Assembly (NCBI GenBank): GCA_009914755.4
Contig: CP086569.2
Location: 30,752,001 to 30,816,000, forward strand
Source: the human T2T-CHM13v2.0 reference genome, Homo sapiens
DNA length: 64,000 bases
Direction of reading: 5' to 3'
Under the pieces are notes generated by a model that saw only the letters and a program-made list of their open reading frames with translations, was not told the origin of the DNA and made no database searches. The position numbers and the translations under genes were made by a program. Shown here one piece after another: positions 10,001 to 48,700 of the stretch. Every line of letters begins with the position of its first letter. Positions within the stretch are counted from its first letter, which is position 1.

Positions 10001-10670
10001 GGAAAGGAAAGGAATGGAATGGAATGGAATGGGCTGGAATGGAAAGGAATCGAAACGAATGGAATGGAATCGAACTGAAGAGACTGGAATGGAATGCACT
10101 GGAATGGAAGGGAGTGTAATGGAAGGTTCTCGAAAATAATGGAAGCAAATGGAATGGAATTGAATGGAACGGAATAGAGTCGAATGGAATTGAATGGAAT
10201 GGAATGGACTAGAGTGAAATGGAATCGAACCACAAGGAATGGACAGGAATAGAATGGTCTCGAATTGAATGGAATCGTATGGAATGGCATCAAACGGAAT
10301 GGAATGGACAGCCACGGAATGGAATGCACTCGAATGCAATGGAGTCGAAACTTATGGACTGGAATAGAATGGACTCGACTGGTACGGACTCCAATGGAAT
10401 GGAATCGAATGGAAGGGATTCGAACGGAATGGACTCGAAGGGAAAAGACTGCAATGGAAAGGTCTCGAATGGAATGGAAATTAATGGAATGGAATGGAAT
10501 CGAATGAAATGGAGTCAAAAGGAATGGAATCGAATGGCAAGAAATCGAATGTAATGGAATCGCAAGGAATTGATGTGAACGGAACGGAATGGAATGGAAT
10601 CCAAAGGAATGGAATAGAATGGAATGGAATCGAATGGAAAGGACTCGAATGGAAATCACTCGAATAGAAT
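7092..10670 (+). repeat. HOR unit U3 (3579 bp)
   Basis: Landmark at 7092; GGCC at 9451. Carries private variants 'ggaaccaaacgg' (~7581) and 'ggaataagatag' (~7625), also seen in the terminal partial unit. Confidence 0.85.
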
Positions 10671-17200: not shown

Positions 17201-17792
17201 AGAGACTGGAATGGAATGCACTGGAATGGAAGGGAGTGTAATGGAAGGTTCTCGAAAAAAATGGAATCGAATGGAATGGAATTGAATGGAACGGAATAGA
17301 GTCGAATGGAATTGAATGGAATGGAATGGACTAGAGTGAAATGGAATCGAACCACAAGGAATGGACAGGAATAGAATGGTCTCGAATTGAATGGAATTGT
17401 ATGGAATGGCATCAAACGGAATGGAATGGACAGCCACGGAATGGAATGCACTCGAATGCAATGGAGTCGAAACTAACGGACTGGAATAGAATGGACTCGA
17501 CTGGTACGGACTCCAATGGAATGGAATCGAATGGAAGGGAATCGAACGGAATGGACTCGAAGGGAAAAGACTGCAATGGAAAGGTCTCGAATGGAATGGA
17601 AATTAATGGAATGGAATGGAATCGAATGAAATGGAGTCAAAAGGAATGGAATCGAATGGCAAGAAATCGAATGTAATGGAATCGCAAGGAATTGATGTGA
17701 ACGGAACGGAATGGAATGGAACCCAAAGGAATGGAATAGAATGGAATGGAATCGAATGGAAAGGACTCGAATGGAAATCACTCGAATAGAAT
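14229..17792 (+). repeat. HOR unit U5 (3564 bp)
   Basis: Landmark at 14229; GGCC at 16598; contains a (GGAAT)10 tract at 16183-16232. Confidence 0.85.
16183..16232 (+). repeat. Perfect (GGAAT)10 tract at a copy-number-variable position inside the HOR
   Basis: Ten uninterrupted GGAAT at a unit offset where U1 has only about four (1961-1985). Confidence 0.8.
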
Positions 17793-24300: not shown

Positions 24301-24875
24301 GCACTGGAATGGAAGGGAGTGTAATGGAAGGTTCTCGAAAAAAATGGAATCGAATGGAATGGAATTGAATGGAACGGAATAGAGTCGAATGGAATTGAAT
24401 GGAATGGAATGGACTAGAGTGAAATGGAATCGAACCACAAGGAATGGACATGAATAGAATGGTCTCGAATTGAATGGAATCGTATGGAATGGCATCAAAC
24501 GGAATGGAATGGACAGCCACGGAATGGAATGCACTCGAATGCAATGGAGTCGAAACTAATCGACTGGAATAGAATGGACTCGACTGGTACGGACTCCAAT
24601 GGAATGGAATCGAATGGAAGGGAATCGAACGGAATGGACTCGAAGGGAAAAGACTGCAATGGAAAGGTCTCGAATGGAATGGAAATTAATGGAATGGAAT
24701 GGAATCGAATGAAATGGAGTCAAAAGGAATGGAATCGAATGGCAAGAAATCGAATGTAATGGAATCACAAGAAATTGATGTGAACGGAACGGAATGGAAT
24801 GGAATCCAAAGGAATGGAATAGAATGGAATGGAATCGAATGGAAAGGACTCGAATGGAAATCACTCGAATAGAAT
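21332..24875 (+). repeat. HOR unit U7 (3544 bp)
   Basis: Landmark at 21332; GGCC at 23671; short form 'ggactggactcgaac' at ~21535 as in U1/U2. Confidence 0.85.
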
Positions 24876-27800: not shown

Positions 27801-28438
27801 GCTGGAATGGAAAGGAATCGAAACGAATGGAATGGAATCGAACTGAAGAGACTGGAATGGAATGCACTGGAATGGAAGGGAGTGTAATGGAAGGTTCTCG
27901 AAAAAAATGGAATCGAATGGAATGGAATTGAATGGAACGGAATAGAGTCGAATGGAATTGAATGGAATGGAATGGACTAGAGTGAAATGGAATCGAACCA
28001 CAAGGAATGGACAGGAATAGAATGGTCTCGAATTGAATGGAATCGTATGGAATGTCATCAAACGGAATGGAATGGACAGCCACGGAATGGAATGCACTCG
28101 AATGCAATGGAGTCGAAACTAATGGACTGGAATAGAATGGACTCGACTGGTACGGACTCCAATGGAATGGAATCGAATGGAAGGGAATCGAACGGAATGG
28201 ACTCGAAGGGAAAAGACTGCAATGGAAAGGTCTCGAATGGAATGGAAATTAATGGAATGGAATGGAATCGAATGAAATGGAGTCAAAAGTAATGGAATCG
28301 AATGGCAAGAAATCGAATGTAATGGAATCGCAAGGAATTGATGTGAACGGAACGGAATGGAATGGAATCCAAAGGAATGGAATAGAATGGAATGGAATCG
28401 AATGGAAAGGACTCGAATGGAAATCACTCGAATAGAAT
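24876..28438 (+). repeat. HOR unit U8 (3563 bp)
   Basis: Landmark at 24876; GGCC at 27234. Private variants 'tgaatggcatggaataatatg' (~25015) and the 1-bp deletion 'gaagccaaagaatgg' (~25545), shared with U9 and the start of U10. Confidence 0.85.
26829..26878 (+). repeat. Perfect (GGAAT)10 tract at the same variable position in U8
   Basis: Ten uninterrupted GGAAT followed by 'ggtgtgg'. Confidence 0.8.
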
Positions 28439-31400
28439 GCAATTTAATAAAATAGGATGAAATGTAATGGAATGGAATGGAAGGGAATCGAAACGAAAGG
28501 AATGGAGACAGATGGAATGGAATGGAACAGAGAGCAATGGTATAGAATGGAATGGAATCATCTGGAATGGAATTGAATGGCATGGAATAATATGAAATGG
28601 AATGGAATGGAATGGAATGGAATGCCCTTGAATTAAATGGACTGGAATGGAATGGACTCGAACAGAGTGGAATGGAAAGTGTTGAGATAGAATGGAATGG
28701 ACTCCTTTGGAATGGTGTAGTATGCAATGCAATCGACTGGCAGGGAATCAAAAGGAATGTAATCGAATGGATTGGACTGGAATGCAATGGACTCGAATAG
28801 ATTGCAAACGGAATGCAAAGGAATGGAATGGAATAGTATGGAATGGAATGGAAAGGAATGGAGTGGAATAGACTAGAGTGGAATGGAATGGACTGGAAAG
28901 CAATGGACTGGAATGGAACTTTCTTGAATGGACTGGAATCAAACGGAATGGAATGCAATGCAATCAAATGGCATGGAATAAAATAGAATGAAAGAGAATC
29001 AAATGGAATTGAATCGAATGGAATCGAATGGATTGGAAAGGAATAGAATGGAATGGAATGGAATGGACTCAAATGGAATGGACTAGAATGGAATGGATTC
29101 GAATGGAAGCCAAAGAATGGAATCTATTGGAATGGACTGTAATGGAATGGAATGGAAGGGATTGGAATGGACTCGAATGGAATGGACTGCAATAGAAAGG
29201 ATTCGAATGGAATGAAAAATAATTGAATGGAATAGAACAGAATGGAATCAAATCGAATGAAATGGAATGGAATAGAAAGGAATGGAATGAAATGGAATGG
29301 AAAGGATTTGAATGGAATGCAATCGAATGGAATGGAATCGAACGGAATGGAATAAAATGGAAGAAAACTGGCAAGAAATGGAATCGAAATGAATGGAGTG
29401 TTATGGAACGGACTCAAAAGGAATTGAATGTAATAGAATGGAGTGGAGTGGACTCGAATATAATGGACTGGAATGGAATGAAATCACATGGAATGGGAAT
29501 GAATGGAATGGAATGGAAAGGAATGGAATCGAATGGAAAGGAATCGAATGGAAGGGAATGAAATTGAATCAACAGGAATGGAAGGGAATAGAATAGACGG
29601 TAATGGAATGGACTCGAATAGAATGGACAGGAATGCTCAAATTGAATGGACTCGAATGGAATGGAAACGAAAGGAATGTCATCGAATGGAATTGAATCGA
29701 TTGGAATGAAATCGTATAGAATGCAGTGGAATCAAATGGAATTGAATCGAAAGGAAAGGAAGCAAATGGACTGAAATGAAATGGAATGGAATTGAATGGA
29801 AAGTTATGTAATGGAATAGAATGGAACGAAATTTCACGGAATGGAATCAAACTGAATGGAATCAAATCAATGGAATCAAATCAAATGGAATGGATAGGAA
29901 TTGAATGGAGTAGATTGGATTGGATGGGATTGGAATGAAATGTACTGGAAAGGACTCGAATTTCATGAAACGGAATGGAATGAATTGGAACGGAACGGAC
30001 TCGAATGGAATGGAATGTCATGGAATGGCATCAAATGGGATGGCATCAAATGGAATGGAATCGAATGCAATGGAATGCTATGGATTGGAATGGAATGCAT
30101 TGGAATGGAATGTCCTCTAATGGAATGGATTCGAGTGGAATGGAATCGAATATAATGGAGTCGAATGAAATGGAATTGAAAGGAATGGGATCGAATACAA
30201 TGGAATATACTGGAATGTAATGTAATGAACTCGAATGTAATTGACTGGAATGGAATGTACATGAATGGAATGTAATCGAATGGAAAGTAATCCAATGGAA
30301 TAGAATCTAATGCAATAAAATCGACTCAGATAGAGTAGAATGTAATGGAATGGAGTGCAGTGCAATGGAATGGAAAGGAATGGAATGCAATAGAATGGAA
30401 TGGAATGGAATGGAATGTAATGGAATGGAATGGAATGGAATGGAATGGTGTGGAATGGATAGTAATGGACTGGAGTGAAATGGACTGGAAAGGACTGGAC
30501 TCAAATTGAAAGGGCTCGAAAGGAATGGAGTCAAATGGAATGGTCTGGAATGGAATGAACACGAATGTAATGCAATCCAATAGAATGGAATCGAATGGCA
30601 TGGAATATAAAGAAATGGAATCGAAGAGAATGGAAACAAATGGAATGGAATTGAGTGGAATGGAATTGAATGGAATGGGAACGAATGGAGTGAAATTGTA
30701 TGCAGTAGAAGAGAATAGAATGGAATGCAAGCGAAAGGAAAGGAATGGATTGGAATGGAATGGAATTCATTGGAATGGAAGGGAATGTAGTGTAATGGAC
30801 AGGCCTGGAATAAAGTGGAATGCTACGGTCTCGAATGGAATAAAAATGTATGGAATGGAATGCAATGAAACGGAATCGAATGTCATAGAATGTAATGGAA
30901 TGCAAAAAAATGGAATCCAAAATCATTGACTGGAAAGGCTGGGTGTCGAAAGGAATTGACTCCAATGGAATGGAATCGAATGGAATGGAAGTGAATAGAA
31001 TCGAACTAAATCGAATGGAATGGAATTGATAGGAACGGAATGGAAAGGAATGCAATGATTTGGCATGGAATGGAATCGAATGGCATCGAATGGAATGGAA
31101 TGTAATGCAATGGAATGGAATGTATTAGAATGTAATGAACTTTAATGGAATGTACTCGAATGGATTCGACTGGAATGGAATGTTCTGGAAGTGAATGGAC
31201 TCCAATGGAATGGATTCCAAAGGAATGGAATCGTACGGAATGGAATCTAATGGAATGGAATTAAATGGAAATGAATCAAATTGAATAGCACGGAATTGAA
31301 TTGAATGAAATGGAATGCAATGGAATCTAATGAAACGGAAAGGAAAGGAATGGAATGGAATGGAATGGGCTGGAATGGAAAGGAATCGAAACGAATGGAA

Positions 31401-32006
31401 TGGAATCGAACTGAAGAGACTGGAATGGAATGCACTGGAATGGAAGGGAGTGTAATGGAAGGTTCTCGAAAAAAATGGAATCGAATGGAATGGAATTGAA
31501 TGGAACGGAATAGAGTCGAATGGAATTGAATGGAATGGAATGGACTAGAGTGAAATGGAATCGAACCACAAGGAATGGACAGGAATAGAATGGTCTCGAA
31601 TTGAATGGAATCGTATGGAATGGCATCAAACGGAATGGAATGGACAGCCACGGAATGGAATGCACTCGAATGCAATGGAGTCGAAACTAATGGACTGGAA
31701 TAGAATGGACTCGACTGGTACGGACTCCAATGGAATGGAATCGAATGGAAGGGAATCGAACGGAATGGACTCGAAGGGAAAAGACTGCAATGGAAAGGTC
31801 TCGAATGGAATGGAAATTAATGGAATGGAATGGAATCGAATGAAATGGAGTCAAAAGTAATGGAATCGAATGGCAAGAAATCGAATGTAATGGAATCACA
31901 AGGAATTGATGTGAACGGAACGGAATGGAATGGAATCCAAAGGAATGGAATAGAATGGAATGGAATCGAATGGAAAGGACTCGAATGGAAATCACTCGAA
32001 TAGAAT
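28439..32006 (+). repeat. HOR unit U9 (3568 bp)
   Basis: Landmark at 28439; GGCC at 30802; same private variants as U8 (~28578, ~29108). Confidence 0.85.
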
Positions 32007-35000
32007 GCAATTTAATAAAATAGGATAAAATGTAATGGAATGGAATGGAAGGGAATCGAAACGAAAGGAATGGAGACAGATGGAATGGAATGGAACAGAG
32101 AGCAATGGTATAGAATGGAATGGAATCATCTGGAATGGAATTGAATGGCATGGAATAATATGAAATGGAATGGAATGGAATGGAATGGAATGCCCTTGAA
32201 TTAAATGGACTGGAATGGAATGGACTCGAACAGAGTGGAATGGAAAGTGTTGAGATAGAATGGAATGGACTCCTTTGGAATGGTGTAGTATGCAATGCAA
32301 TCGACTGGCAGGGAATCAAAAGGAATGTAATCGAATGGATTGGACTGGAATGCAATGGACTCGAATAGATTGCAAACGGAATGCAAAGGAATGGAATGGA
32401 ATAGTATGGAATGGAATGGAAAGGAATGGAGTGGAATAGACTAGAGTGGAATGGAATGGACTGGAAAGCAATGGACTGGAATGGAACTTTCTTGAATGGA
32501 CTGGAATCAAACGGAATGGAATGCAATGCAATCAAATGGCATGGAATAAAATAGAATGAAAGAGAATCAAATGGAATTGAATCGAATGGAATCGAATGGA
32601 TTGGAAAGGAATAGAATGGAATGGAATGGAATGGACTCAAATGGAATGGACTAGAATGGAATGGATTCGAATGGAAGCCAAAGAATGGAATCTATTGGAA
32701 TGGACTGTAATGGAATGGAATGGAAGTGATTGGAATGGACTCGAATGGAATGGACTGCAATAGAAAGGATTCGAATGGAATGAAAAAGAATTGAATGGAA
32801 TAGAACAGAATGGAATCAAATCGAATGAAATGGAATGGAATAGAAAGGAATGGAATGAAATGGAATGGAAAGGATTCGAATGGAATGCAATCGAATGGAA
32901 TGGAATCGAACGGAATGGAATAAAATGGAAGAAAACTGGCAAGAAATGGAATCGAAATGAATGGAGTGTTATGGAACGGACTCAAAAGGAATTGAATGTA
33001 ATAGAATGGAGTGGAGTGGACTCGAATATAATGGACTGGAATGGAATGAAATCACATGGAATGGGAACGAATGGAATGGAATGGAAAGGAATGGAATCGA
33101 ATGGAAAGGAATCGAATGGAAGGGAATGAAATTGAATCAACAGGAATGGAAGGGAATAGAATAGACGGTAATGGAATGGACTCGAATAGAATGGACACGA
33201 ATGCTCAAATTGAATGGACTCGAATGGAATGGAAACGAAAGGAATGTCATCGAATGGAATTGAATCGATTGGAATGAAATCGCATAGAATGGAGTGGAAT
33301 CAAATGGAATTGAATCGAAAGGAAAGGAAGCGAATGGACTGAAATGAAATGGAATGGAATTGAATGGAAAGTAATGCAATGGAATAGAATGGAACGAAAT
33401 TTCACGGAATGGAATCAAACTGAATGGAATCAAATCAATGGAATCCAATCAAATGGAATGGAGTAGATTGGATTGGATGGGATTGGAATGAAATGTACTG
33501 GAAAGGACTCGAATTTCATGAAACGGAATGGAATGAATTGGAACGGAATGGACTCGAATGGAATGGAATGACATGGAATGGCATCAAATGGAATGGCATC
33601 AAATGGAATGGAATCGAATGCAATGGAATGCTATGGAAGGGAATGGAATGCATTGGAATGGAATGTCCTCTAATGGAATGGATTCGAGTGGAATGGAATC
33701 GAATATAATGGAGTCGAATGAAATGGAATTGAAAGGAATGGGATCGAATACAATGGAATATACTGGAATGTAATGTAATGAACTCGAATGTAATTGACTG
33801 GAATGGAATGTACATGAATGGAATGTAATCGAATGGAAAGTAATCCAATGGAATAGAATCTAATGCAATAAAATCGACTCAGATAGAGTAGAATGTAATG
33901 GAATGGAGTGCAGTGCAATGGAATGGAATGGAATGGAATGCAATTGAATGGAATGGAATGGAATGGAATGGAATGGAATGGAATGGAATGGGATGGAATG
34001 GTATGGAATGGATAGTAATGGACTGGAGTGAAATGGACTGGAAAGGAATGGACTCAAATTGAAAGGGCTCGAAAGGAATGGAGTCAAATGGAATGGTCTG
34101 GAATGGAATGAACAAGAATGTAATGCAATCCAATAGAATGGAATCGAATGACATGGAATATAAAGAAATGGAATCGGAGAGAATGGAAACAAATGGAATT
34201 GAATTGAATGGAATGGAATTGAATGGTATGGGAACGAATGGAGTGAAATTGTATGCAGTAGAAGGGAATAGAATGGAATGCAAGCGAAAGGAAAGGAATG
34301 GATTGGAATGGAATGGAATTCATTGGAATGGAAGGGAATGTAGTGTAATGGACAGGCCTGGAATAAAGTGGAATGCTACGGTCTCGAATGGAATAAAAAT
34401 GTATGGAATGGAATGCAATGAAATGGAATCGAATGTCATAGAATGTAATGGAATGCAACAAAATGGAATCCAAAATCATTGACTGGAAAGGCTGGGTGTC
34501 GAAAGGAATTGACTCCAATGGAATGGAATCGAATGGAATGGAAGTGAATAGAATCGAACTAAATCGAATGGAATGGAATTGATAGGAACGGAATGGAAAG
34601 GAATGCAATGATTTGGCATGGAATGGAATCGAATGGCATCGAATGGAATGGAATGGAATGCAATGGAATGGAATGTATTAGAATGTAATGAACTTTAATG
34701 GAATGTACTCGAATGGATTCGACTGGAATGGAATGTTCTGGAAGTGAATGGACTCCAATGGAATGGATTCCAAAGGAATGGAATCGTACGGAATGGAATC
34801 TAATGGAATGGAATTAAATGGAAATGAATCAAATTGAATAGCACGGAATTGAATTGAATGGAATGGAATGCAATGGAATCTAATGAAACGGAAAGGAAAG
34901 GAATGGAATGGAATGGAATGGGCTGGAATGGAAAGGAATCGAAACGAATGGAATGGAATCGAACTGAAGAGACTGGAATGGAATGCACTGGAATGGAAGG

Positions 35001-36974
35001 GAGTGTAATGGAAGGTTCTCGAAAAAAATGGAATCGAATGGAATGGAATTGAATGGAACGGAATAGAGTCGAATGGAATTGAATGGAATGGAATGGACTA
35101 GAGTGAAATGGAATCGAACCACAAGGAATGGACATGAATAGAATGGTCTCGAATTGAATGGAATCGTATGGAATGGCATCAAACGGAATGGAATGGACAG
35201 CCACGGAATGGAATGCACTCGAATGCAATGGAGTCGAAACTAATGGACTGGAATAGAATGGACTCGACTGGTACGGACTCCAATGGAATGGAATCGAATG
35301 GAAGGGAATCGAACGGAATGGACTCGAAGGGAAAAGACTGCAATGGAAAGGTCTCGAATGGAATGGAAATTAATGGAATGGAATGGAATCGAATGAAATG
35401 GAGTCAAAAGGAATGGAATCGAATGGCAAGAAATCGAATGTAATGGAATCACAAGGAATTGATGTGAACGGAACGGAATGGAATGGAATCCAAAGGAATG
35501 GAATAGAATGGAATGGAATCGAATGGAAAGGACTCGAATGGAAATCACTCGAATAGAATGCAATTTAATAAAATAGGATAAAATGTAATGGAATGGAATG
35601 GAAGGGAATCGAAACGAAAGGAATGGAGACAGATGGAATGGAATGGAACAGAGAGCAATGGTATAGAATGGAATGGAATCATCTGGAATGGAATTGAATG
35701 GAATGGAATAATATGAAATGGAATGGAATGGAATTCATTGGAATGGAAGGGAATGTAGTGTAATGGACAGGCCTGGAATAAAGTGGAATGCTACGGTCTC
35801 GAATGGAATAAAAATGTATGGAATGGAATGCAATGAAACGGAATCGAATGTCATAGAATGTAATGGAATGCAAAAAAATGGAATCCAAAATCATTGACTG
35901 GAAAGGCTGGGTGTCGAAAGGAATTGACTCCAATGGAATGGAATCAAATGGAATGGAAGTGAATAGAATCGAACTAAATCGAATGGAATGGAATTGATAG
36001 GAACGGAATGGAAAGGAATGCAATGATTTGGCATGGAATGGAATCGAATGGCATCGAATGGAATGGAATGGAATGCAATGGAATGGAATGTATTAGAATG
36101 TAATGAACTTTAATGGAATGTACTCGAATGGATTCGACTGGAATGGAATGTTCTGGAAGTGAATGGACTCCAATGGAATGGATTCAAAAGGAATGGAATC
36201 GTACAGAATGGAATCTAATGGAATGGAATTAAATGGAAATGAATCAAATTGAATAGCACGGAATTGAATTGAATGAAATGGAATGCAATGGAATCTAATG
36301 AAACGGAAAGGAAAGGAATGGAATGGAATGGAATGGGCTGGAATGGAAAGGAATCGAAACGAATGGAATGGAATCGAACTGAAGAGACTGGAATGGAATG
36401 CACTGGAATGGAAGGGAGTGTAATGGAAGGTTCTCGAAAAAAATGGAATCGAATGGAATGCAATTGAATGGAACGGAATAGAGTCGAATGGAATTGAATG
36501 GAATGGAATGGACTAGAGTGAAATGGAATCGAACCACAAGGAATGGACAGGAATAGAATGGTCTCGAATTGAATGGAATCGTATGGAATGGCATCAAACG
36601 GAATGGAATGGACAGCCACGGAATGGAATGCACTCGAATGCAATGGAGTCGAAACTAATGGACTGGAATAGAATGGACTCGACTGGTACGGACTCCAATG
36701 GAATGGAATCGAATGGAAGGGAATCGAACGGAATGGACTCGAAGGGAAAAGACTGCAATGGAAAGGTCTCGAATGGAATGGAAATTAATGGAATGGAATG
36801 GAATCGAATGAAATGGAGTCAAAAGTAATGGAATCGAATGGCAGGAAATCGAATGTAATGGAATCGCAAGGAATTGATGTGAACGGAACGGAATGGAATG
36901 GAATCCAAAGGAATGGAATAGAATGGAATGGAATCGAATGGAAAGGACTCGAATGGAAATCACTCGAATAGAAT
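32007..36974 (+). repeat. HOR unit U10, long variant (4968 bp) containing a 1.415-kb internal tandem duplication
   Basis: Landmark at 32007, repeated inside the duplication at 35560 and 36975 (+1415). GGCC at 34355 and 35770 (+1415). Junction at ~35721-35735 within shared 'atggaatggaatggaat'. Confidence 0.85.
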
Positions 36975-37145
36975 GCAATTTAATAAAATAGGATCAAATG
37001 TAATGGAATGGAATGGAAAGGAATCGAAACGAAAGGAATGGAGACAGATGGAATGGAATGGAACAGAGAGCAATGGTATAGAATGGAATGGAATCATCTG
37101 GAATGGAATTGAATGGAATGGAATAATATGAAATGGAATGGAATG
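35731..37145 (+). repeat. Second copy of the 1.415-kb intra-unit tandem duplication (first copy ~34316-35730)
   Basis: 'ggaattcattgg' at 34315-34326 recurs at 35730-35741. 'ggaataatatg' ends at 35715 and again at 37130. The pseudo-ORF 34800..35228 repeats at 36215..36643 (+1415). Confidence 0.85.
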
Positions 37146-40100
37146 GAATGGAATGGAATGGAATGGAATGCCCTTGAATTAAATGGACTGGAATGGAATG
37201 GACTCAAACAGAGTGGAATGGAAAGTGTTGAGATAGAATGGAATGGACTCCTTTGGAATGGTCTAGTATGCAATGCAATCGACTGGTAGGGAATCAAAAG
37301 GAATGTAATCGAATGGATTGGACTGGAATGCAATGGACTCGAATAGATTGGAAACGGAATGCAAAGGAATGGAATGGAATAGTATGGAATGGAATGGAAA
37401 GGAATGGAGTGGAATAGACTAGAGTGGAATGGAATGGACTGGAAAGCAATGGACTGGAATGGAACTTTCTTGAATGGACTGGAATCAAACGGAATGGAAT
37501 GCAATGCAATCAAATGGCATGGAATAAAATAGAATGAAAGAGAATCAAATGGAATTGAATCGAATGGAATCGAATGGATTGGAAAGGAATAGAATGGAAT
37601 GGAATGGAATTGACTCAAATGGAATGGACTAGAATGGAATGGATTCGAATGGAAGGCAAAGGAATGGAATCTATTGGAATGGACTGTAATGGAATGGAAT
37701 GGAAGGGATTGGAATGGACTCGAATGGAATGGACTGCAATAGAAAGGATTCGAATGGAATGAAAAAGAATTGAATGGAATAGAACAGAATGGAATCAAAT
37801 CGAATGAAATGGAATGGAATAGAAAGGAATGGAATGAAATGGAATGGAAAGGATTCGAATGGAATGCAATCGAATGGAATGGAATCGAACGGAATGGAAT
37901 AAAATGGAAGAAAACTGGCAAGAAATGGAATCGAAATGAATGGAGTGTTATGGAACGGACTCAAAAGGAATTGAATGTAATAGAATGGAGTGGAGTGGAC
38001 TCGAATATAATGGACTGGAATGGAATGAAATCACATGGAATGGGAACGAATGGAATGGAATGGAAAGGAATGGAATCGAATGGAAAGGAATCGAATGGAA
38101 GGGAATGAAATTGAATCAACAGGAATGGAAGGGAATAGAATAGACGGTAATGGAATGGACTCGAATAGAATGGACACGAATGCTCAATTTGAATGGACTC
38201 GAATGGAATGGAAACGAAAGGAATGTCATCGAATGGAATTGAATCGATTGGAATGAAATCGCATAGAATGGAGTGGAATCAAATGGAATTGAATCGAAAG
38301 GAAAGGAAGCGAATGGACTGAAATGAAATGGAATGGAATTGAATGGAAAGTAATGCAATGGAATAGAATGGAACGAAATTTCACGGAATGGAATCAAACT
38401 GAATGGAATCAAATCAATGGAATCTAATCAAATGGAATGGAAAGGAATTGAATGGAGTAGATTGGATTGGATGGGATTGGAATGAAATGTACTGGAAAGG
38501 ACTCGAATTTCATGAAACGGAATGGAATGAATTGGAACGGAATGGACTCGAATGGAATGGAATGTCATGGAATGGCATCAAATGGAATGGCATCAAATGG
38601 AATGGAATCGAATGCAATGGAATGTTATGGAATGGAATGGAATGCATTGGAATGGAATGTCCTCTAATGGAATGGATTCGAGTGGAATGGAATCGAATAT
38701 AATGGAGTCGAATGAAATGGAATTGAAAGGAATGGGATCGAATCGAATGGAATATACTGGAATGTAATGTAATGAACTCGAATGTAATTGACTGGAATGG
38801 AATGTACATGAATGGAAGGTAATCGAATGGAAAGTAATCCAATGGAATAGAATCTAATGCAATAAAATCGACTCAGATAGAGTAGAATGTAATGGAATGG
38901 AGTGCAGTGCAATGGAATGGAATGGAATTGAATGCAATGGAATGGAATGGAATGGAATGGAATGGAATGGAATGGAATGGAATGGGATGGAATGGTATGG
39001 AATGGATAGTAATGGACTGGAGTGAAATGGACAGGAAAGGAATGGACTCAAATTGAAAGGGCTCGAAAGGAATGGAGTCAAATGGAATGGTCTGGAATGG
39101 AATGAACACGAATGTAATGCAATCCAATAGAATGGAATCGAATGGCATGGAATATAAAGAAATGGATTCGAAGAGAATGGAAACAAATGGAATGGAATTG
39201 AATGGAATGGAATTGAATGGAATGGGAACGAATGGAGTGAAATTGTATGCAGTAGAAGGGAATAGAATGGAATGCAAGCGAAAGGAAAGGAATGGATTGG
39301 AATGGAATGGAATTCATTGGAATGGAAGGGAATGTAGTGTAATGGACAGGCCTGGAATAAAGTGGAATGCTACGGTCTCGAATGGAATAAAAATGTATGG
39401 AATGGAATGCAATGAAACGGAATCGAATGTCATAGAATGTAATGGAATGCAACAAAATGGAATCCAAAATCATTGACTGGAAAGGCTGGGTGTCGAAAGG
39501 AATTGACTCCAATGGAATGGAATCGAATGGAATGGAAGTGAATAGAATCGAACTAAATCGAATGGAATGGAATTGATAGGAACGGAGTGGAAAGGAATGC
39601 AATGATTTGGCATGGAATGGAATCGAATGGCATCGAATGGAATGGAATGGAATGCAATGGAATGGAATGTATTAGAATGTAATGAACTTTAATGGAACAT
39701 ACTCGAATGGATTCGACTGGAATGGAATGTTCTGGAAGTGAATGGACTCCAATGGAATGGATTCAAAAGGAATGGAATTGTACGGAATGGAATCTAATGG
39801 AATGGAATTAAATGGAAATGAATCAAATTGAATAGCACGGAATTGAATTGAATGGAATGGAATGCAATGGAATCTAATGAAACGGAAAGGAAAGGAATGG
39901 AATGGAATGGAATGGGCTGGAATGGAAAGGAATCGAAACGAATGGAATGGAATCGAACTGAAGAGACTGGAATGGAATGCACTGGAATGGAAGGGAGTGT
40001 AATGGAAGGTTCTCGAAAAAAATGGAATCGAATGGAATGGAATTGAATGGAACGGAATAGAGTCGAATGGAATTGAATGGAATGGAATGGACTAGAGTGA

Positions 40101-40553: not shown

Positions 40554-43500
40554 GCAATTTAATAAAATAGGATCAAATGTAATGGAATGGAATGGAAAGG
40601 AATCGAAACGAAAGGAATGGAGACAGATGGAATGGAATAGAACAGCGAGCAATGGTATAGAATGGAATGGAATCATCTGGAATGGAATTGAATGGAATGG
40701 AATAATATGAAATGGAATGGAATGGAATGGAATGGAATGGAATGCCCTTGAATTAAATGGACTGGAATGGAATGGACTCGAACAGAGTGGAATGGAAAGT
40801 GTTGAGATAGAATGGAATGGACTCCTTTGGAATGGTGTAGTATGCAATGCAATCGACTGGCAGGGAATCAAATGGAATGTAATCGAATGGATTGGACTGG
40901 AATGCAATGGACTCGAATAGATTGCAAACGGAATGCAAAGGAATGGAATGGAATAGTATGGAATGGAATGGAAAGGAATGGAGTGGAATAGACTAGAGTG
41001 GAATGGAATGGACTGGAAAGCAATGGACTGGAATGGAACTTTCTTGAATGGACTGGAATCAAACGGAATGGAATGCAATGCAATCAAATGGCATGGAATA
41101 AAATAGAATGAAAGAGAATCAAATGGAATTGAATCGAATGGAATCGAATGGATTGGAAAGGAATAGAATGGAATGGAATGGAATGGACTCAAATGGAATG
41201 GACTAGAATGGAATGGATTCGAATGGAAGGCAAAGGAATGGAATCTATTGGAATGGACTGTAATGGAATGGAATGGAAGGGATTGGAATGGACTCGAATG
41301 GAATGGACTGCAATAGAAAGGATTCGAATGGAATGAAAAAGAATTGAATGGAATAGAACAGAATGGAATCAAATCGAATGAAATGGAATGGAATAGAAAG
41401 GAATGGAATGAAATGGAATGGAAAGGATTCGAATGGAATGCAATCAAATGGAATGGAATCGAACGGAATGGAATAAAATGGAAGAAAACTGGCAAGAAAT
41501 GGAATCGAAATGAATGGAGTGTTATGGAACGGACTCAAAAGGAATTGAATGTAATAGAATGGAGTGGAGTGGACTCGAATATAATGGACTGGAATGGAAT
41601 GAAATCACATGGAATGGGAACGAATGGAATGGAATGGAAAGGAATGGAATCGAATGGAAAGGAATCGAATGGAAGGGAATGAAATTGAATCAACAGGAAT
41701 GGAAGGGAATAGAATAGACGGCAATGGAATGGACTCGAATAGAATGGACACGAATGCTCAAATTGAATGGACTCGAATGGAATGGAAACGAAAGGAATGT
41801 CATCGAATGGAATTGAATCGATTGGAATGAAATCGCATAGAATGGAGTGGAATCAAATGGAATTGAATCGAAAGGAAAGGAAGCGAATGGACTGAAATGA
41901 AATGGAATGGAATTGAATGGAAAGTAATGCAATGGAATAGAATGGAACGAAATTTCACGGAATGGAATCAAACTGAATGGAATCAAATCAATGGAATCAA
42001 ATCAAATGAATGGAAAGGAATTGAATGGAGTAGATTGGATTGGATGGGATTGGAATGAAATGTACTGGAAAGGACTCGAATTTCATGAAACGGAATGGAA
42101 TGAATTGGAACGGAATGGACTCGAATGGAATGGAATGACATGGAATGGCATCAAATGGAATGGCATCAAATGGAATGGAATCGAATGCAATGGAATGCTA
42201 TGGAAGGGAATGGAATGCATTGGAATGGAATGTCCTCTAATGGAATGGATTCGAGTGGAATGGAATCGAATATAATGGAGTCGAATGAAATGGAATTGAA
42301 AGGAATGGGATCGAATACAATGGAATATACTGGAATGTAATGTAATGAACTCGAATGCAATTGACTGGAATGGAATGTACATGAATGGAATGTAATCGAA
42401 TGGAAAGTAATCCAATGGAATAGAATCTAATGCAATAAAATCGACTCAGATAGAGTAGAATGTAATGGAATGGAGTGCAGTGCAATGGAATGGAATGGAA
42501 TGGAATGCAATTGAATGGAATGGAATGGAATGGAATGGAATGGAATGGAATGGGATGGAATGGTATGGAATGGATAGTAATGGACTGGAGTGAAATGGAC
42601 TGGAAAGGAATGGACTCAAATTGAAAGGGCTCGAAAGGAATGGAGTCAAATGGAATGGTCTGGAATGGAATGAACAAGAATGTAATGCAATCCAATAGAA
42701 TGGAATCGAATGACATGGAATATAAAGAAATGGAATCGGAGAGAATGGAAACAAATGGAATTGAATTGAATGGAATGGAATTGAATGGTATGGGAACGAA
42801 TGGAGTGAAATTGTATGCAGTAGAAGGGAATAGAATGGAATGCAAGCGAAAGGAAAGGAATGGATTGGAATGGAATGGAATTCATTGGAATGGAAGGGAA
42901 TGTAGTGTAATGGACAGGCCTGGAATAAAGTGGAATGCTACGGTCTCGAATGGAATAAAAATGTATGGAATGGAATGCAATGAAATGGAATCGAATGTCA
43001 TAGAATGTAATGGAATGCAACAAAATGGAATCCAAAATCATTGACTGGAAAGGCTGGGTGTCGAAAGGAATTGACTCCAATGGAATGGAATCGAATGGAA
43101 TGGAAGTGAATAGAATCGAACTAAATCGAATGGAATGGAATTGATAGGAACGGAATGGAAAGGAATGCAATGATTTGGCATGGAATGGAATCGAATGGCA
43201 TCGAATGGAATGGAATGGAATGCAATGGAATGGAATGTATTAGAATGTAATGAACTTTAATGGAATGTACTCGAATGGATTCGACTGGAATGGAATGTTC
43301 TGGAAGTGAATGGACTCCAATGGAATGGATTCCAAAGGAATGGAATCGTACGGAATGGAATCTAATGGAATGGAATTAAATGGAAATGAATCAAATTGAA
43401 TAGCACGGAATTGAATTGAATGGAATGGAATGCAATGGAATCTAATGAAACGGAAAGGAAAGGAATGGAATGGAATGGAATGGGCTGGAATGGAAAGGAA

Positions 43501-45536
43501 TCGAAACGAATGGAATGGAATCGAACTGAAGAGACTGGAATGGAATGCACTGGAATGGAAGGGAGTGTAATGGAAGGTTCTCGAAAAAAATGGAATCGAA
43601 TGGAATGGAATTGAATGGAACGGAATAGAGTCGAATGGAATTGAATGGAATGGAATGGACTAGAGTGAAATGGAATCGAACCACAAGGAATGGACATGAA
43701 TAGAATGGTCTCGAATTGAATGGAATCGTATGGAATGGCATCAAACGGAATGGAATGGACAGCCACGGAATGGAATGCACTCGAATGCAATGGAGTCGAA
43801 ACTAATGGACTGGAATAGAATGGACTCGACTGGTACGGACTCCAATGGAATGGAATCGAATGGAAGGGAATCGAACGGAATGGACTCGAAGGGAAAAGAC
43901 TGCAATGGAAAGGTCTCGAATGGAATGGAAATTAATGGAATGGAATGGAATCGAATGAAATGGAGTCAAAAGGAATGGAATCGAATGGCAAGAAATCGAA
44001 TGTAATGGAATCACAAGGAATTGATGTGAACGGAACGGAATGGAATGGAATCCAAAGGAATGGAATAGAATGGAATGGAATCGAACGGAAAGGACTCGAA
44101 TGGAAATCACTCTAATAGAATGCAATTTAATAAAATAGGATAAAATGTAATGGAATGGAATGGAAGGGAATCGAAACGAAAGGAATGGAGACAGATGGAA
44201 TGGAATGGAACAGAGAGCAATGGTATAGAATGGAATGGAATCATCTGGAATGGAATTGAATGGAATGGAATAATATGAAATGGAATGGAATGGAATTCAT
44301 TGGAATGGAAGGGAATGTAGTGTAATGGACAGGCCTGGAATAAAGTGGAATGCTACGGTCTCGAATGGAATAAAAATGTATGGAATGGAATGCAATGAAA
44401 CGGAATCGAATGTCATAGAATGTAATGGAATGCAAAAAAATGGAATCCAAAATCATTGACTGGAAAGGCTGGGTGTCGAAAGGAATTGACTCCAATGGAA
44501 TGGAATCAAATGGAATGGAAGTGAATAGAATCGAACTAAATCGAATGGAATGGAATTGATAGGAACGGAATGGAAAGGAATGCAATGATTTGGCATGGAA
44601 TGGAATCGAATGGCATCGAATGGAATGGAATGGAATGCAATGGAATGGAATGTATTAGAATGTAATGAACTTTAATGGAATGTACTCGAATGGATTCGAC
44701 TGGAATGGAATGTTCTGGAAGTGAATGGACTCCAATGGAATGGATTCAAAAGGAATGGAATCGTACAGAATGGAATCTAATGGAATGGAATTAAATGGAA
44801 ATGAATCAAATTGAATAGCACGGAATTGAATTGAATGAAATGGAATGCAATGGAATCTAATGAAACGGAAAGGAAAGGAATGGAATGGAATGGAATGGGC
44901 TGGAATGGAAAGGAATCGAAACGAATGGAATGGAATCGAACTGAAGAGACTGGAATGGAATGCACTGGAATGGAAGGGAGTGTAATGGAAGGTTCTCGAA
45001 AAAAATGGAATCGAATGGAATGCAATTGAATGGAACGGAATAGAGTCGAATGGAATTGAATGGAATGGAATGGACTAGAGTGAAATGGAATCGAACCACA
45101 AGGAATGGACAGGAATAGAATGGTCTCGAATTGAATGGAATCGTATGGAATGGCATCAAACGGAATGGAATGGACAGCCACGGAATGGAATGCACTCGAA
45201 TGCAATGGAGTCGAAACTAATGGACTGGAATAGAATGGACTCGACTGGTACGGACTCCAATGGAATGGAATCGAATGGAAGGGAATCGAACGGAATGGAC
45301 TCGAAGGGAAAAGACTGCAATGGAAAGGTCTCGAATGGAATGGAAATTAATGGAATGGAATGGAATCGAATGAAATGGAGTCAAAAGTAATGGAATCGAA
45401 TGGCAAGAAATCGAATGTAATGGAATCGCAAGGAATTGATGTGAACGGAACGGAATGGAATGGAATCCAAAGGAATGGAATAGAATGGAATGGAATCGAA
45501 TGGAAAGGACTCGAATGGAAATCACTCGAATAGAAT
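40554..45536 (+). repeat. HOR unit U12, long variant (4983 bp) with the same 1.415-kb internal tandem duplication
   Basis: Landmark at 40554, duplicated landmarks at 44122 and 45537 (+1415). GGCC at 42917 and 44332 (+1415). Junction at ~44283-44297 in the same microhomology as U10. Confidence 0.85.
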
Positions 45537-45707
45537 GCAATTTAATAAAATAGGATCAAATGTAATGGAATGGAATGGAAAGGAATCGAAACGAAAGGAA
45601 TGGAGACAGATGGAATGGAATGGAACAGAGAGCAATGGTATAGAATGGAATGGAATCATCTGGAATGGAATTGAATGGAATGGAATAATATGAAATGGAA
45701 TGGAATG
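44293..45707 (+). repeat. Second copy of the 1.415-kb intra-unit tandem duplication (first copy ~42878-44292)
   Basis: 'ggaattcattgg' at 42877-42888 and 44292-44303. 'aatatg' ends at 44277 and 45692. The pseudo-ORF 43362..43790 repeats at 44777..45205. Confidence 0.85.
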
Positions 45708-48700
45708 GAATGGAATGGAATGGAATGGAATGCCCTTGAATTAAATGGACTGGAATGGAATGGACTCGAACAGAGTGGAATGGAAAGTGTTGAGATAGAA
45801 TGGAATGGACTCCTTTGGAATGGTCTAGTATGCAATGCAATCGACTGGTAGGGAATCAAAAGGAATGTAATCGAATGGATTGGACTGGAATGCAATGGAC
45901 TCGAATAGATTGGAAACGGAATGCAAAGGAATGGAATGGAATAGTATGGAATGGAATGGAAAGGAATGGAGTGGAATAGACTAGAGTGGAATGGAATGGA
46001 CTGGAAAGCAATGGACTGGAATGGAACTTTCTTGAATGGACTGGAATCAAACGGAATGGAATGCAATGCAATCAAATGGCATGGAATAAAATAGAATGAA
46101 AGAGAATCAAATGGAATTGAATCGAATGGAATCCAATGGATTGGAAAGGAATAGAATGGAATGGAATGGAATTGACTCAAATGGAATGGACTAGAATGGA
46201 ATGGATTCGAATGGAAGGCAAAGGAATGGAATCTATTGGAATGGACTGTAATGGAATGGAATGGAAGGGATTGGAATGGACTCGAATGGAATGGACTGCA
46301 ATAGAAAGGATTCGAATGGAATGAAAAAGAATTGAATGGAATAGAACAGAATGGAATCAAATCGAATGAAATGGAATGGAATAGAAAGGAATGGAATGAA
46401 ATGGAATGGAAAGGATTCGAATGGAATGCAATCGAATGGAATGGAATCGAACGGAATGGAATAAAATGGAAGAAAACTGGCAAGAAATGGAATCGAAATG
46501 AATGGAGTGTTATGGAACGGACTCAAAAGGAATTGAATGTAATAGAATGGAGTGGAGTGGACTCGAATATAATGGACTGGAATGGAATGAAATCACATGG
46601 AATGGGAACGAATGGAATGGAATGGAAAGGAATGGAATCGAATGGAAAGGAATCGAATGGAAGGGAATGAAATTGAATCAACAGGAATGGAAGGGAATAG
46701 AATAGACGGTAATGGAATGGACTCGAATAGAATGGACACGAATGCTCAATTTGAATGGACTCGAATGGAATGGAAACGAAAGGAATGTCATCGAATGGAA
46801 TTGAATCGATTGGAATGAAATCGCATAGAATGGAGTGGAATCAAATGGAATTGAATCGAAAGGAAAGGAAGCGAATGGACTGAAATGAAATGGAATGGAA
46901 TTGAATGGAAAGTAATGCAATGGAATAGAATGGAACGAAATTTCACGGAATGGAATCAAACTGAATGGAATCAAATCAATGGAATCAAATCAAATGGAAT
47001 GGAAAGGAATTGAATGGAGTAGATTGGATTGGATGGGATTGGAATGAAATGTACTGGAAAGGACTCGAATTTCATGAAACGGAATGGAATGAATTGGAAC
47101 GGAATGGACTCGAATGGAATGGAATGTCATGGAATGGCATCAAATGGAATGGCATCAAATGGAATGGAATCGAATGGAATGGAATGCATTGGAATGGAAT
47201 GTCCTCTAATGGAATGGATTCGAGTGGAATGGAATCGAATATAATGGAGTCGAATGAAATGGAATTGAAAGGAATGGGATCGAATACAATGGAATATACT
47301 GGAATGTAATGTAATGAACTCGAATGTAATTGACTGGAATGGAATGTACGTGAATGGAATGTAATCGAATGGAAAGTAATCCAATGGAATAGAATCTAAT
47401 GCAATAAAATCGACTCAGATAGAGTAGAATGTAATGGAATGGAGTGCAGTGCAATGGAATGGAATGGAATGGAATGCAATTGAATGGAATGGAATGGAAT
47501 GGAATGGAATGGAATGGGATGGAATGGTATGGAATAGATAGTAATGGACTGGAGTTAAATGGACTGGAAAGGAATGGACTCAAATTGAAAGGGCTCGAAA
47601 GGAATGGAGTCAAATGGAATGGTCTGGAATGGAATGAACACGAATGTAATGCAATCCAATAGAATGGAATCGAATGGCATGGAATATAAAGAAATGGAAT
47701 CAGAGAGAATGGAAACAAATGGAATGGAATTGAATGGAATGGAATTGAATGGAATGGGAACGAATGGAGTGAAATTGTATGCAGTATAAGGGAATAGAAT
47801 GGAATGCAAGCGAGAGGAAAGGAATGGATTGGAATGGAATGGAATTCATTGGAATGGAAGGGAATGTAGTGTAATGGACAGGCCTGGAATAAAGTGGAAT
47901 GCTACGGTCTCGAATGGAATAAAAATGTATGGAATGGAATGCAATGAAATGGAATCGAATGTCATAGAATGTAATGGAATGCAACAAAATGGAATCCAAT
48001 ATCATTGACTGGAAAGGCTGGGTGTCGAAAGGAATTGACTCCAATGGAATGGAATCGAATGGAATGGAAGTGAATAGAATCGAACTAAATCGAATGGAAT
48101 GGAATTGATAGGAACGGAATGGAAAGGAATGCAATGATTTGGCATGGAATGGAATCGAATGGCATCGAATGGAATGGAATGGAATGCAATGGAATGGAAT
48201 GTATTAGAATGTAATGAACTTTAATGGAATGTACTCGAATGGATTCGACTGGAATGGAATGTTCTGGAAGTGAATGGACTCCAATGGAATGGATTCAAAA
48301 GGAATGGAATCGTACGGAATGGAATCTAATGGAATGGAATTAAATGGAAATGAATCAAATTGAATAGCACGGAATTGAATTGAATGGAATGGAATGCAAT
48401 GGAATCTAATGAAACGGAAAGGAAAGGAATGGAATGGAATGGAATGGGCTGGAATGGAAAGGAATCGAAACGAATGGAATGGAATCGAACTGAAGAGACT
48501 GGAATGGAATGCACTGGAATGGAAGGGAGTGTAATGGAAGGTTCTCGAAAAAAATGGAATCGAATGGAATGGAATTGAATGGAACGGAATAGAGTCGAAT
48601 GGAATTGAATGGAATGGAATGGACTAGAGTGAAATGGAATCGAACCACAAGGAATGGAGAGGAATAGAATGGTCTCGAATTGAATGGAATCGTATGGAAT

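What the first reader, a model, noticed from the sequence alone, without database searches (positions are those of the whole stretch)
34316..37145. 1.415-kb internal tandem duplication creating a 4.97-kb long-form HOR unit (U10)
Inside U10 the segment from 'ggaattcattggaatggaagggaatgtagtg' through 'ggaatggaataatatgaaatggaatggaatgg' occurs twice back to back, at ~34316-35730 and ~35731-37145. Everything inside it is repeated at an offset of 1415 bp: the landmark (35560 vs 36975), the HaeIII site (34355 vs 35770) and the pseudo-ORFs (34800..35228 vs 36215..36643). The junction at 35721-35735 falls within a shared 16-bp 'atggaatggaatggaat' microhomology, as expected for out-of-register exchange or replication slippage between pentamer runs. 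On HaeIII digestion this variant unit would release an extra ~1.4 kb fragment alongside the 3.56 kb one.
Basis: seen in the sequence. Interest (0 to 1): 0.55.

Follow-up and report, generated by a model that had tools for sequence, protein, structure and literature searches.

The report
Partial-unit duplication in Y-chromosome DYZ1 satellite
A 1,415-bp piece of the 3.56-kb human Y-chromosome DYZ1 satellite repeat is duplicated head-to-tail to make a 4.97-kb "long" repeat unit; it is real, occurs twice in this window rather than once, is not recent, and is an ordinary by-product of satellite turnover with no sign of function.

Summary
Window 34316-35730 and 35731-37145 are collinear, ungapped copies (1,415 bp, 13 mismatches, 99.08%). 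They are joined inside a 16-bp TGGAATGGAATGGAAT microhomology. Each copy has its own HaeIII and EcoRI site, so an in-silico HaeIII digest gives 1,415 + 3,579 bp.

The sequence is human DYZ1/HSat3A6. Eight of eight published DYZ1 primers, the HSat3A6 signature 24-mer, and the GC and CpG values all match.

The interpretation needs two corrections:
- **Not private to one unit.** The same long form, with an identical junction, recurs 8,562 bp downstream (42878-44292 / 44293-45707). Copy 1 matches copy 1' (2 differences) and copy 2 matches copy 2' (1 difference). A 5.15-kb tract around the two long units is 99.86% identical.
- **Not a fresh slippage product.** The two copies inside one unit differ as much as ordinary units do (13 differences; median 16). 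Ten of the 13 differences are alleles also carried by other units (chance P about 4e-15).

The breakpoint sites share only the 16-bp match, flanked by about 60% pentamer-background identity. The founding join was therefore microhomology-mediated, not classical homologous crossover. The variant unit then persisted, exchanged variants with neighbouring units, and was itself copied.

I found no explicit published description, but partial DYZ1 units are catalogued in aggregate. Interest is low.

The parts
34316..35730 (+). Copy 1 (A1) of the duplicated 1,415-bp segment in the first long-form DYZ1 unit (L1)
   Evidence: Ungapped 99.08% match to 35731-37145. Only 2 differences from 42878-44292.
35731..37145 (+). 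Copy 2 (A2) of the duplicated segment in L1
   Evidence: Only 1 difference from 44293-45707. Carries 3 private alleles, and the two of them shared with A2' (34531, 34790) are CpG>CpA.
35719..35734 (+). A|A junction microhomology TGGAATGGAATGGAAT in L1; the breakpoint lies somewhere within these 16 bp
   Evidence: Boundary comparison across all units. The junction-specific 41-mer occurs only at 35711-35751 and 44273-44313, with 0 expected by chance.
34304..34319 (+). Left parental copy of the 16-bp microhomology (B|A boundary, spanning the EcoRI site)
   Evidence: Flanking identity to the A|B boundary is only about 0.58-0.65.
37134..37149 (+). Right parental copy of the microhomology (A|B boundary), start of an (AATGG)6 run
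   Evidence: The run is 6 repeats after both long forms and 4 in 13 of 17 units.
42878..44292 (+).
   Evidence: EcoRI, HaeIII and landmark spacings of 1415. 99.86% identical to A1.
44293..45707 (+). Copy 2' (A2') in L2
   Evidence: Junction identical to L1.
44281..44296 (+). A|A junction microhomology in L2
33456..38609 (+). L1 side of the high-identity tract shared by the two long units at offset about 8,562 bp
   Evidence: 7 substitutions plus one 5-bp indel in 5,154 bp (0.14%). Divergence is about 1-2% beyond the right edge and 0.4% rising to above 1% to the left.
42023..47170 (+). L2 side of the same shared tract
34355..34358 (.). HaeIII site (GGCC) in A1. Its partner in A2 is at 35770-35773, giving the 1,415-bp fragment.
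   Evidence: The same pair in L2 is at 42917 and 44332.

Best explanation
The window is an array of human Y-chromosome DYZ1 (HSat3A6) satellite, with 3.52-3.58-kb units. Call the 1,415 bp after the EcoRI site segment A, and the remaining about 2.15 kb segment B.

**Founding event.** At some point an out-of-register join occurred between two short perfect (GGAAT)3 runs: the one just before the EcoRI site and the one 1,415 bp downstream. This produced a B-A-A-B arrangement, a 4.97-4.99-kb 'long-form' unit. The two sites share only a 16-bp perfect match, embedded in about 60% pentamer-background similarity. The join was therefore microhomology-mediated (end joining between sister chromatids, or template switching during replication), not classical homologous crossover.

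**Persistence and propagation.** The long unit then stayed in the array long enough for its two A copies to reach the ordinary inter-unit level of divergence. Most of their differences are alleles shared with other units. Either the two copies came from different parental units, or they later exchanged patches with neighbours by gene conversion. More recently, a roughly 5.2-kb block containing the whole long unit was copied 8.56 kb away, by unequal sister-chromatid exchange and/or long-tract conversion. That gives the present long-short-long pattern.

**Function.** The variant is a neutral structural polymorphism of the satellite with no coding or regulatory role.

**Shown:** collinearity, the junction, the second copy, the orthology of copies, the shared alleles, and the lack of flanking homology. 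**Inferred:** the molecular pathway, the order of events and neutrality.
For: - **DYZ1 identity.** HaeIII/EcoRI spacing is 3,524-3,579 bp. Eight of eight DYZ1 primers from Yadav 2014 (PMC3925983, Table 5) hit once per unit. GC is 38.8% and CpG density 1 per 35 bp, equal to the values in Hallast 2023. The HSat3A6 signature 24-mer of Altemose 2014 occurs 30 times against 0 expected. Human-derived public contigs are 97-99.5% identical.
- **The duplication.** 1,415 bp, ungapped, 99.08%.
- **Same junction twice.**
- **Orthology of copies.** A1/A1' differ at 2 sites and A2/A2' at 1, against 13-14 for A1/A2. The shared 5.15-kb tract is 99.86% identical.
- **Age.** Thirteen differences sits inside the ordinary inter-unit range (median 16; 36% of pairs have 13 or fewer). 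The two private alleles shared by A2 and A2' are CpG>CpA.
- **Microhomology only.** Identity is 1.00 over the 16 bp and 0.48-0.69 in the flanks. The 16-mer occurs about 14 times per unit.
- **Literature.** Yq12 evolves by unequal exchange, with frequent sister-chromatid exchange (Rhie 2023). Gene conversion is seen among de novo Yq12 changes (PMC13252187).
Against: - The L1/L2 shared tract (5.15 kb, at most 6.4 kb) is shorter than the 8,562-bp period that a single unequal exchange would duplicate. At least one further event, or a conversion-type transfer, is needed.
- The unit just upstream of L1 carries both A1-type and A2-type local alleles in an interleaved order. Neither the 'different parents' nor the 'same parent' model explains this simply.
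- No reciprocal 2.15-kb short unit is present in the window.
- Prevalence outside this window could not be measured. There are no read data to exclude an assembly problem.
Confidence: 0.8

Rival explanations
1. Recent intra-unit replication slippage, or a same-unit sister-chromatid misalignment, produced two initially identical copies in one unit. All present differences are later point mutations.
For: The duplication is perfectly collinear with a microhomology junction. The two private A2 alleles shared by L1 and L2 are CpG>CpA, as expected of new mutations.
Against: The copies differ at 13 sites, as much as ordinary units do. Ten of 13 differences reproduce alleles present in other units (P about 4e-15 by chance), with haplotype-like sharing among specific neighbours. 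The structure exists twice, and the two instances differ by only 1-2 sites per copy, so the A1/A2 split long predates the L1/L2 split. A same-unit origin remains possible only if followed by several gene-conversion events.
Confidence: 0.07
2. The two long units arose independently, by recurrent duplication at the same slippage-prone microhomology pair.
For: The 16-mer is a (GGAAT)3 run that is length-unstable at the A|B boundary, with 3-6 repeats among units. Recurrence at such sites is conceivable.
Against: A1 and A1' share all 7 non-consensus alleles, and A2 and A2' share 5 of 6, including two otherwise private ones. The flanks are 99.86% identical over 5.15 kb, and both units have the same (AATGG)6 expansion and the same GGTATGG variant upstream. 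The 16-mer occurs about 14 times per unit, so the same pair being hit twice is unlikely.
Confidence: 0.02
3. Assembly artefact: a false duplication introduced when assembling a near-identical satellite.
For: Yq12 is among the hardest regions to assemble, and Y-assembly papers report curation of tandem-repeat loops. No reads are available here.
Against: A false duplication of one sequence would give identical copies. Here the copies differ at 13 sites that are real array alleles. The structure is present twice with small differences. Modern assemblers do not join on a 16-bp overlap.
Confidence: 0.04
4. The founding event was a classical homologous unequal crossover (NAHR) between misaligned units.
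For: Unequal exchange is the accepted driver of Yq12 array evolution. At multiple-of-5 offsets the pentamer satellite retains 60-70% identity.
Against: In the required register, identity around the breakpoints is 1.00 only over 16 bp. It is 0.48-0.69 over the flanking 400 bp in all 11 ordinary units tested, far below what homologous recombination normally needs (established knowledge, not tested here).
Confidence: 0.07

Closest known systems
Canonical DYZ1 / HSat3A6 3.56-kb repeat unit of human Yq12 (Nakahori 1986 as cited in PMC3925983; 3,569-bp HaeIII consensus of Hallast 2023)
   Same: Same sequence family. There is one HaeIII and one EcoRI site per unit, a GGAAT/TTCCA pentamer base, GC 38.8%, CpG 1 per 35 bp, and all published primers and the signature 24-mer match. 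Seventeen of the nineteen EcoRI-to-EcoRI... intervals excluded, 16 of 18 intervals in the window are canonical (3,524-3,579 bp).
   Different: The long form contains segment A (1,415 bp, about 40% of the unit) twice, giving 4.97-4.99 kb and a second HaeIII/EcoRI site.
Partial or non-canonical DYZ1 units catalogued in aggregate by Hallast et al. 2023 (supplement)
   Same: They report HMMER-delimited DYZ1 units of 1,165-3,608 bp, with 5% under 3 kb. They also report wide HaeIII fragment-length variation with a similar pattern in seven complete Yq12 assemblies. An extra 1,415-bp A copy would be counted there as a short 'unit' or short fragment.
   Different: No specific 1,415-bp duplication, junction or 4.97-kb unit is described in the text I could read. 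The figures with length distributions are not held.
Structural variants of alpha-satellite higher-order repeats that gain or lose part of the unit (general knowledge, not tested here)
   Same: A variant unit length is created by an out-of-register event inside a tandem array and then propagated locally by unequal exchange or conversion.
   Different: Alpha-satellite variants usually shift by whole 171-bp monomers that share 70-80% or more identity, which suits homologous misalignment. Here the register shift is defined only by a 16-bp pentamer-run microhomology.
2.7-kb repeat of the Yq11/Yq12 transition zone (Hallast 2023)
   Same: Another unit-length derivative built partly from DYZ1 sequence; 77% of it is 97% identical to DYZ1.
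   Different: That repeat is a DYZ18/DYZ1 chimera forming its own array at the Yq12 edge. The present variant is pure DYZ1, embedded among canonical units.

Membership tests
DYZ1 / HSat3A6 satellite | Tandem unit of about 3.56 kb cut once by HaeIII (and once by EcoRI) | tested here: met
   HaeIII and EcoRI spacings are 3,524-3,579 bp for all ordinary units. The literature values are 3,564 and 3,569 bp.
DYZ1 / HSat3A6 satellite | Built from diverged TTCCA/GGAAT pentamers | tested here: met
   Perfect GGAAT covers 33% of bases. TRF consensus is (GGAAT)3. Autocorrelation peaks fall at multiples of 5.
DYZ1 / HSat3A6 satellite | Published DYZ1-specific primer sites present once per unit | tested here: met
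   All 8 primers of PMC3925983 Table 5 are found. Seven occur 15-19 times with 0-1 errors; primer B has 2 exact hits and its looser matches were not listed. The two sexing primers I recalled from memory also match once per unit, about 154 bp apart, but I could not confirm them in a paper.
DYZ1 / HSat3A6 satellite | HSat3A6 signature 24-mer TCGTTTCGATTCCTTTCCATTCCA (Altemose 2014) | tested here: met
   30 exact matches against 0 expected.
DYZ1 / HSat3A6 satellite | GC about 38% and about 1 CpG per 35 bp | tested here: met
   38.8% GC and 1 CpG per 35.4 bp, against Hallast 2023.
DYZ1 / HSat3A6 satellite | Located in Yq12 of the human Y chromosome (male-specific) | not testable with these tools
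   No human assembly can be searched. There is indirect support only: 97-99.5% identical contigs occur in human-associated metagenomes and as contaminants of bacterial assemblies.
Simple replication-slippage tandem duplication (recent) | Copies identical at birth, so differences should be few and private | tested here: not met
   There are 13 differences, equal to the ordinary inter-unit level. Ten of 13 are shared with other units.
Non-allelic homologous recombination (classical unequal crossover) as founding event | Extended high-identity homology flanking both breakpoints in the recombining register | tested here: not met
   Only 16 bp are perfect. The flanks are 0.48-0.69 identical over +/-400 bp in 11 units.
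Microhomology-mediated duplication (end joining or template switching) | Short perfect microhomology at the junction, no filler bases, otherwise dissimilar flanks | tested here: met
   The junction is the 16-bp TGGAATGGAATGGAAT with no inserted bases. The pathway itself cannot be tested from sequence.
Propagation by a single unequal sister-chromatid exchange of period 8,562 bp | Near-identity across one full period (8.56 kb) between the two copies | tested here: inconclusive
   High identity holds only over 5.15 kb (at most 6.4 kb). The short units flanking the long ones are about 1% diverged.

The most novel reading that the evidence does not exclude
The 4.97-kb long form may not be a local curiosity. 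It could be an old, widespread DYZ1 sub-variant that forms its own domains (for example alternating long + short 8.56-kb super-units) in particular Yq12 blocks, and whose copy number and haplotypes differ among Y haplogroups. It would then be a usable marker for reconstructing how Yq12 blocks were duplicated. The equilibrium-level divergence of its two copies would give a direct handle on conversion rates within a satellite unit.
Probability: 0.25. Interest if true: 0.3.

Novelty: new member of a known kind. Interest (0 to 1): 0.15.

Why it matters
The finding matters little on its own. Unit-length variants created by out-of-register events are expected in satellite arrays, and Yq12 is already known to evolve by unequal exchange.

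It has modest value as a natural experiment. Two copies of the same 1.4-kb segment sit side by side, yet they are as diverged as distant units and share alleles with neighbours. This shows that patchy exchange between units, rather than point mutation alone, shapes DYZ1 variation. The identical junction in two units gives a clean, searchable 41-mer marker for tracing array history across the many Y assemblies now available.

There is also a practical consequence. HaeIII-based or profile-based partitioning of DYZ1 arrays will score each long unit as one normal unit plus one 1.4-kb 'truncated' unit.

Tried and rejected
- **Generic repeat tools.** TRF (period cap 500 in this tool) and the repeat finder were swamped by the pentamer background and gave nothing at the 1.4-kb scale. 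I used direct comparison and BLAST instead.
- **Junction 41-mer in metagenome contigs.** There were 0 hits. The control 30-mer found 29 metagenome loci and 6 contaminant contigs in bacterial assemblies. All 38 sites had the normal B|A context. Most are collapsed short-read contigs carrying consensus alleles, so this shows only that the long form is not the majority form.
- **Viral contigs.** They hold no DYZ1.
- **Exact-protein look-up.** Both the junction-spanning ORF and a control ORF were absent, so the result is uninformative.
- **Protein-collection search with the junction ORF.** There were 17 word-sharing candidates and none was significant, so the result is uninformative.
- **Literature.** A search for the recalled sexing primer found nothing. 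The '154 bp' hit was an unrelated STS assay. A search for 'DYZ1' plus '1.4 kb' found nothing relevant.
- **Rejected readings.** Coding potential of the 142-aa ORFs is rejected because they are mechanical ORFs in stop-poor repeats. Independent indels adding up to 1,415 bp are rejected because the alignment is ungapped. A simple one-unit-offset (k=1) exchange is rejected because A2 vs the upstream A shows 10 differences, the downstream vs upstream B segments 24, and the next A vs A1 13, all at background level.
Full report
**What the window is.** The 64-kb window is one uninterrupted GGAAT-rich satellite. It is 38.8% GC, perfect GGAAT covers 33% of bases, and it has one CpG per 35 bp. A higher-order period of 3,523-3,584 bp shows up in local self-comparison. 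The same period appears in the spacing of single HaeIII and EcoRI sites and of an AT-rich landmark.

I tested membership in human DYZ1/HSat3A6 rather than assuming it:
- All eight DYZ1 primers printed in Yadav et al. 2014 (PMC3925983, Table 5) are found. Seven occur about once per unit with 0-1 errors, and primer B has 2 exact hits.
- The HSat3A6 signature 24-mer of Altemose et al. 2014 occurs 30 times against 0 expected.
- GC and CpG density equal the values Hallast et al. 2023 give for DYZ1.
- Independent contigs from human-associated metagenomes, and contaminants in bacterial assemblies, are 97-99.5% identical. Many are about 3.56-3.72 kb long, the size of a collapsed unit.

Chromosomal location cannot be tested with these tools.

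**The observation.** It is correct. Window 34316-35730 and 35731-37145 align without a single gap over 1,415 bp, with 13 mismatches (99.08%). Out-of-register background identity in this satellite is about 0.6-0.75. The landmark (35560/36975), HaeIII sites (34355/35770), EcoRI sites (34316/35731) and the 142-aa minus-strand ORFs (34800..35228 and 36215..36643) are all repeated at +1415. The ORFs are mechanical consequences of a stop-poor pentamer repeat. In-silico HaeIII digestion gives 1,415 + 3,579 bp.

I call the 1,415 bp after the EcoRI site segment A and the remaining 2.15 kb segment B. Ordinary units read ...B A B A..., and the long unit reads B A A B. I compared the B|A and A|B boundaries of all units. 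The breakpoint lies inside a 16-bp perfect match, TGGAATGGAATGGAAT, with no inserted bases.

The same structure occurs again at 42878-44292 / 44293-45707. The EcoRI, HaeIII and landmark spacings show a second 1,415-bp step. The junction-specific 41-mer occurs exactly twice, at 35711 and 44273, with none expected by chance. The local pattern is therefore long-short-long among otherwise canonical units.

**How the four copies are related.** In an alignment of all 19 A segments, copy 1 of L1 differs from copy 1 of L2 at 2 sites. Copy 2 differs from copy 2 at 1 site. Copy 1 and copy 2 of the same unit differ at 13-14 sites. Both long units also share the (AATGG)6 expansion after copy 2 (4 repeats in 13 of 17 units) and the same GGTATGG variant upstream.

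I aligned the two neighbourhoods at offset 8,562. There are 7 substitutions and one 5-bp indel in 33456-38609 (0.14%). The right edge is sharp: a 20-bp indel followed by about 1.6% divergence. The left edge is fuzzier, at 0.4% back to about 32150 and above 1% beyond that.

The upstream B segments of the two long units are each other's closest relatives (7 substitutions). The downstream B segments agree only in their first 1.4 kb. The two long units are therefore copies of one another, and the A-A duplication predates their split. Independent recurrence is effectively excluded.

**Age and origin of the duplication.** Thirteen differences per 1,415 bp lies inside the distribution for ordinary inter-unit pairs (median 16; 36% of pairs have 13 or fewer). 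At 10 of the 13 sites, both alleles also occur in other units, and they are shared in blocks with particular neighbours. Copy 1 resembles units 16559/20088/47842 at its 5' end and 23632-30763 at its 3' end.

Only three alleles are private, all in copy 2. The two that both long units share are CpG>CpA, the expected signature of real new mutations. Public consensus-like contigs carry the majority allele at all 13 sites, so copy 1 has 7 non-consensus alleles and copy 2 has 6.

A recent slippage within one unit is therefore not what is seen. Either the two copies descend from different parental units, or they started identical and were later patched by gene conversion from other units. The data do not separate these two options. 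A simple one-unit-offset exchange is excluded, because the expected duplicate relationships of the flanks are at background level. The unit just upstream of L1 carries both copy-1-type and copy-2-type local alleles in an interleaved order, which I cannot explain simply.

For a rough scale, I used about 2.5e-7 changes per bp per transmission. This comes from 40 de novo Yq12 SNVs in six transmissions and a mean Yq12 length of 27.1 Mb, and is my own order-of-magnitude inference. On that basis:
- The L1/L2 split is on the order of 2,800 generations old.
- The A1/A2 divergence, if due to mutation alone, corresponds to about 19,000 generations.

Conversion makes both figures unreliable.

**Mechanism of the founding join.** In 11 ordinary units I compared the B|A boundary with the A|B boundary in the register fixed by the microhomology. 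Identity is 1.00 over the 16 bp (0.94 in one unit) and 0.48-0.69 over the flanking 400 bp. No extended homology exists for classical homologous unequal crossover. The join is best described as microhomology-mediated, either end joining between sister chromatids or template switching at a fork. The 16-mer occurs about 14 times per unit, and the A|B run is length-unstable. Many such misjoins are therefore possible, and this is one that survived. The pathway itself is inferred, not shown.

**Propagation.** The Y-assembly literature attributes Yq12 structure to unequal exchange, with sister-chromatid exchanges in about 15% of Strand-seq libraries (Rhie 2023). It also reports gene-conversion-like de novo changes in Yq12 (PMC13252187). 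A single unequal exchange of period 8,562 bp would give near-identity over the full period. I see it over only 5.15 kb (at most 6.4 kb). Either a later event overwrote the intervening short unit, or the transfer was conversion-like, or the two long units come from a larger long-form domain beyond the window. This stays open.

**Comparison with what is known.** The canonical unit, its HaeIII behaviour and its evolution by unequal exchange are textbook. They report wide fragment-length variation with a similar pattern in seven complete Yq12 assemblies. They also report profile-delimited DYZ1 units ranging from 1,165 to 3,608 bp, with 5% under 3 kb. An extra 1,415-bp A copy would fall into that class. 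I found no text that names a 1,415-bp duplication, its junction, or a 4.97-kb unit. I therefore file it as a new, specific member of a known kind of event.

**Prevalence.** I could not measure it. The junction 41-mer has no exact match in the metagenome collection. The control motif finds 38 sites, all with the normal context. These are mostly collapsed consensus contigs, so this shows only that the long form is a minority form. Protein-based look-ups failed their controls.

**Verdict.** This is a real, collinear, microhomology-bounded partial-unit duplication in DYZ1. It is present twice, is older than it looks, and was propagated as a variant unit. It has no indication of function. It is ordinary satellite dynamics and scores low on interest.

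Noticed in passing
window 13020-13042 (unit starting 12986): This unit has lost its HaeIII site (GGCC>GGTC). An in-silico HaeIII digest therefore gives a 7,147-bp dimer fragment here.
   Followed up: partly
window 26928-29500 vs +3568: Two adjacent ordinary units are nearly identical: about 7 mismatches in about 2.6 kb, A segments 27195 vs 30763 differ at 3 sites, and B segments 25023 vs 28586 at 7. This indicates a recent one-unit duplication or homogenisation just upstream of the first long unit.
   Followed up: partly
window 37126, 40705, 45688 (A|B boundary runs): The (AATGG)n run at the A|B boundary has 4 repeats in 13 of 17 units. It has 6 after both long forms, 5 in the short unit between them, and 3 in one other unit. 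The breakpoint site is itself a slippage-prone microsatellite.
   Followed up: partly
window 30763-32177 (A segment just upstream of L1): This segment carries both copy-1-type local alleles (homologous to 34771C, 35451A, 35580A, 35604G) and copy-2-type ones (34861A, 35411T), in an interleaved order. The mosaic fits neither a single crossover between the copies nor a simple parent-offspring relation.
   Followed up: partly
L030-L035 (genome contigs): Human DYZ1 contigs are deposited inside species-representative 'bacterial' assemblies: Actinomadura cremea JCM 3308 (BMRF01000076.1), Streptomyces kurssanovii JCM 4388, Streptosporangium violaceochromogenes JCM 3281, Streptomyces sp. NPDC050549, Senimuribacter sp. 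DSM 106208, and a Polyangiaceae MAG. This points to contamination with male human DNA. The two I compared with the window, L030 and L035, are 99.2-99.5% identical to it.
   Followed up: partly
window, every unit: EcoRI site and +665 bp (e.g. 34315 and 34980): The 31-bp motif at the start of segment A recurs 665 bp downstream in nearly every unit with 4 or fewer mismatches. This suggests an older internal sub-repeat within the DYZ1 unit.
   Followed up: no
window 9412-12985, 16559-20087, 62032-end: Three units are outliers. Their A segments differ from the others at 29-73 alignment columns, including 15-bp indels, whereas most other pairs differ at 4-26. Divergence is therefore not uniform along the array.
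   Followed up: no
L004-L006 (metagenome contig BNJT01001888.1, 55.5 kb): A long metagenome contig holds a multi-unit DYZ1-like array with 3,553-bp spacing, only 94.6-98.2% identical to the window. It may represent a more diverged DYZ1 block or a different individual.
   Followed up: no
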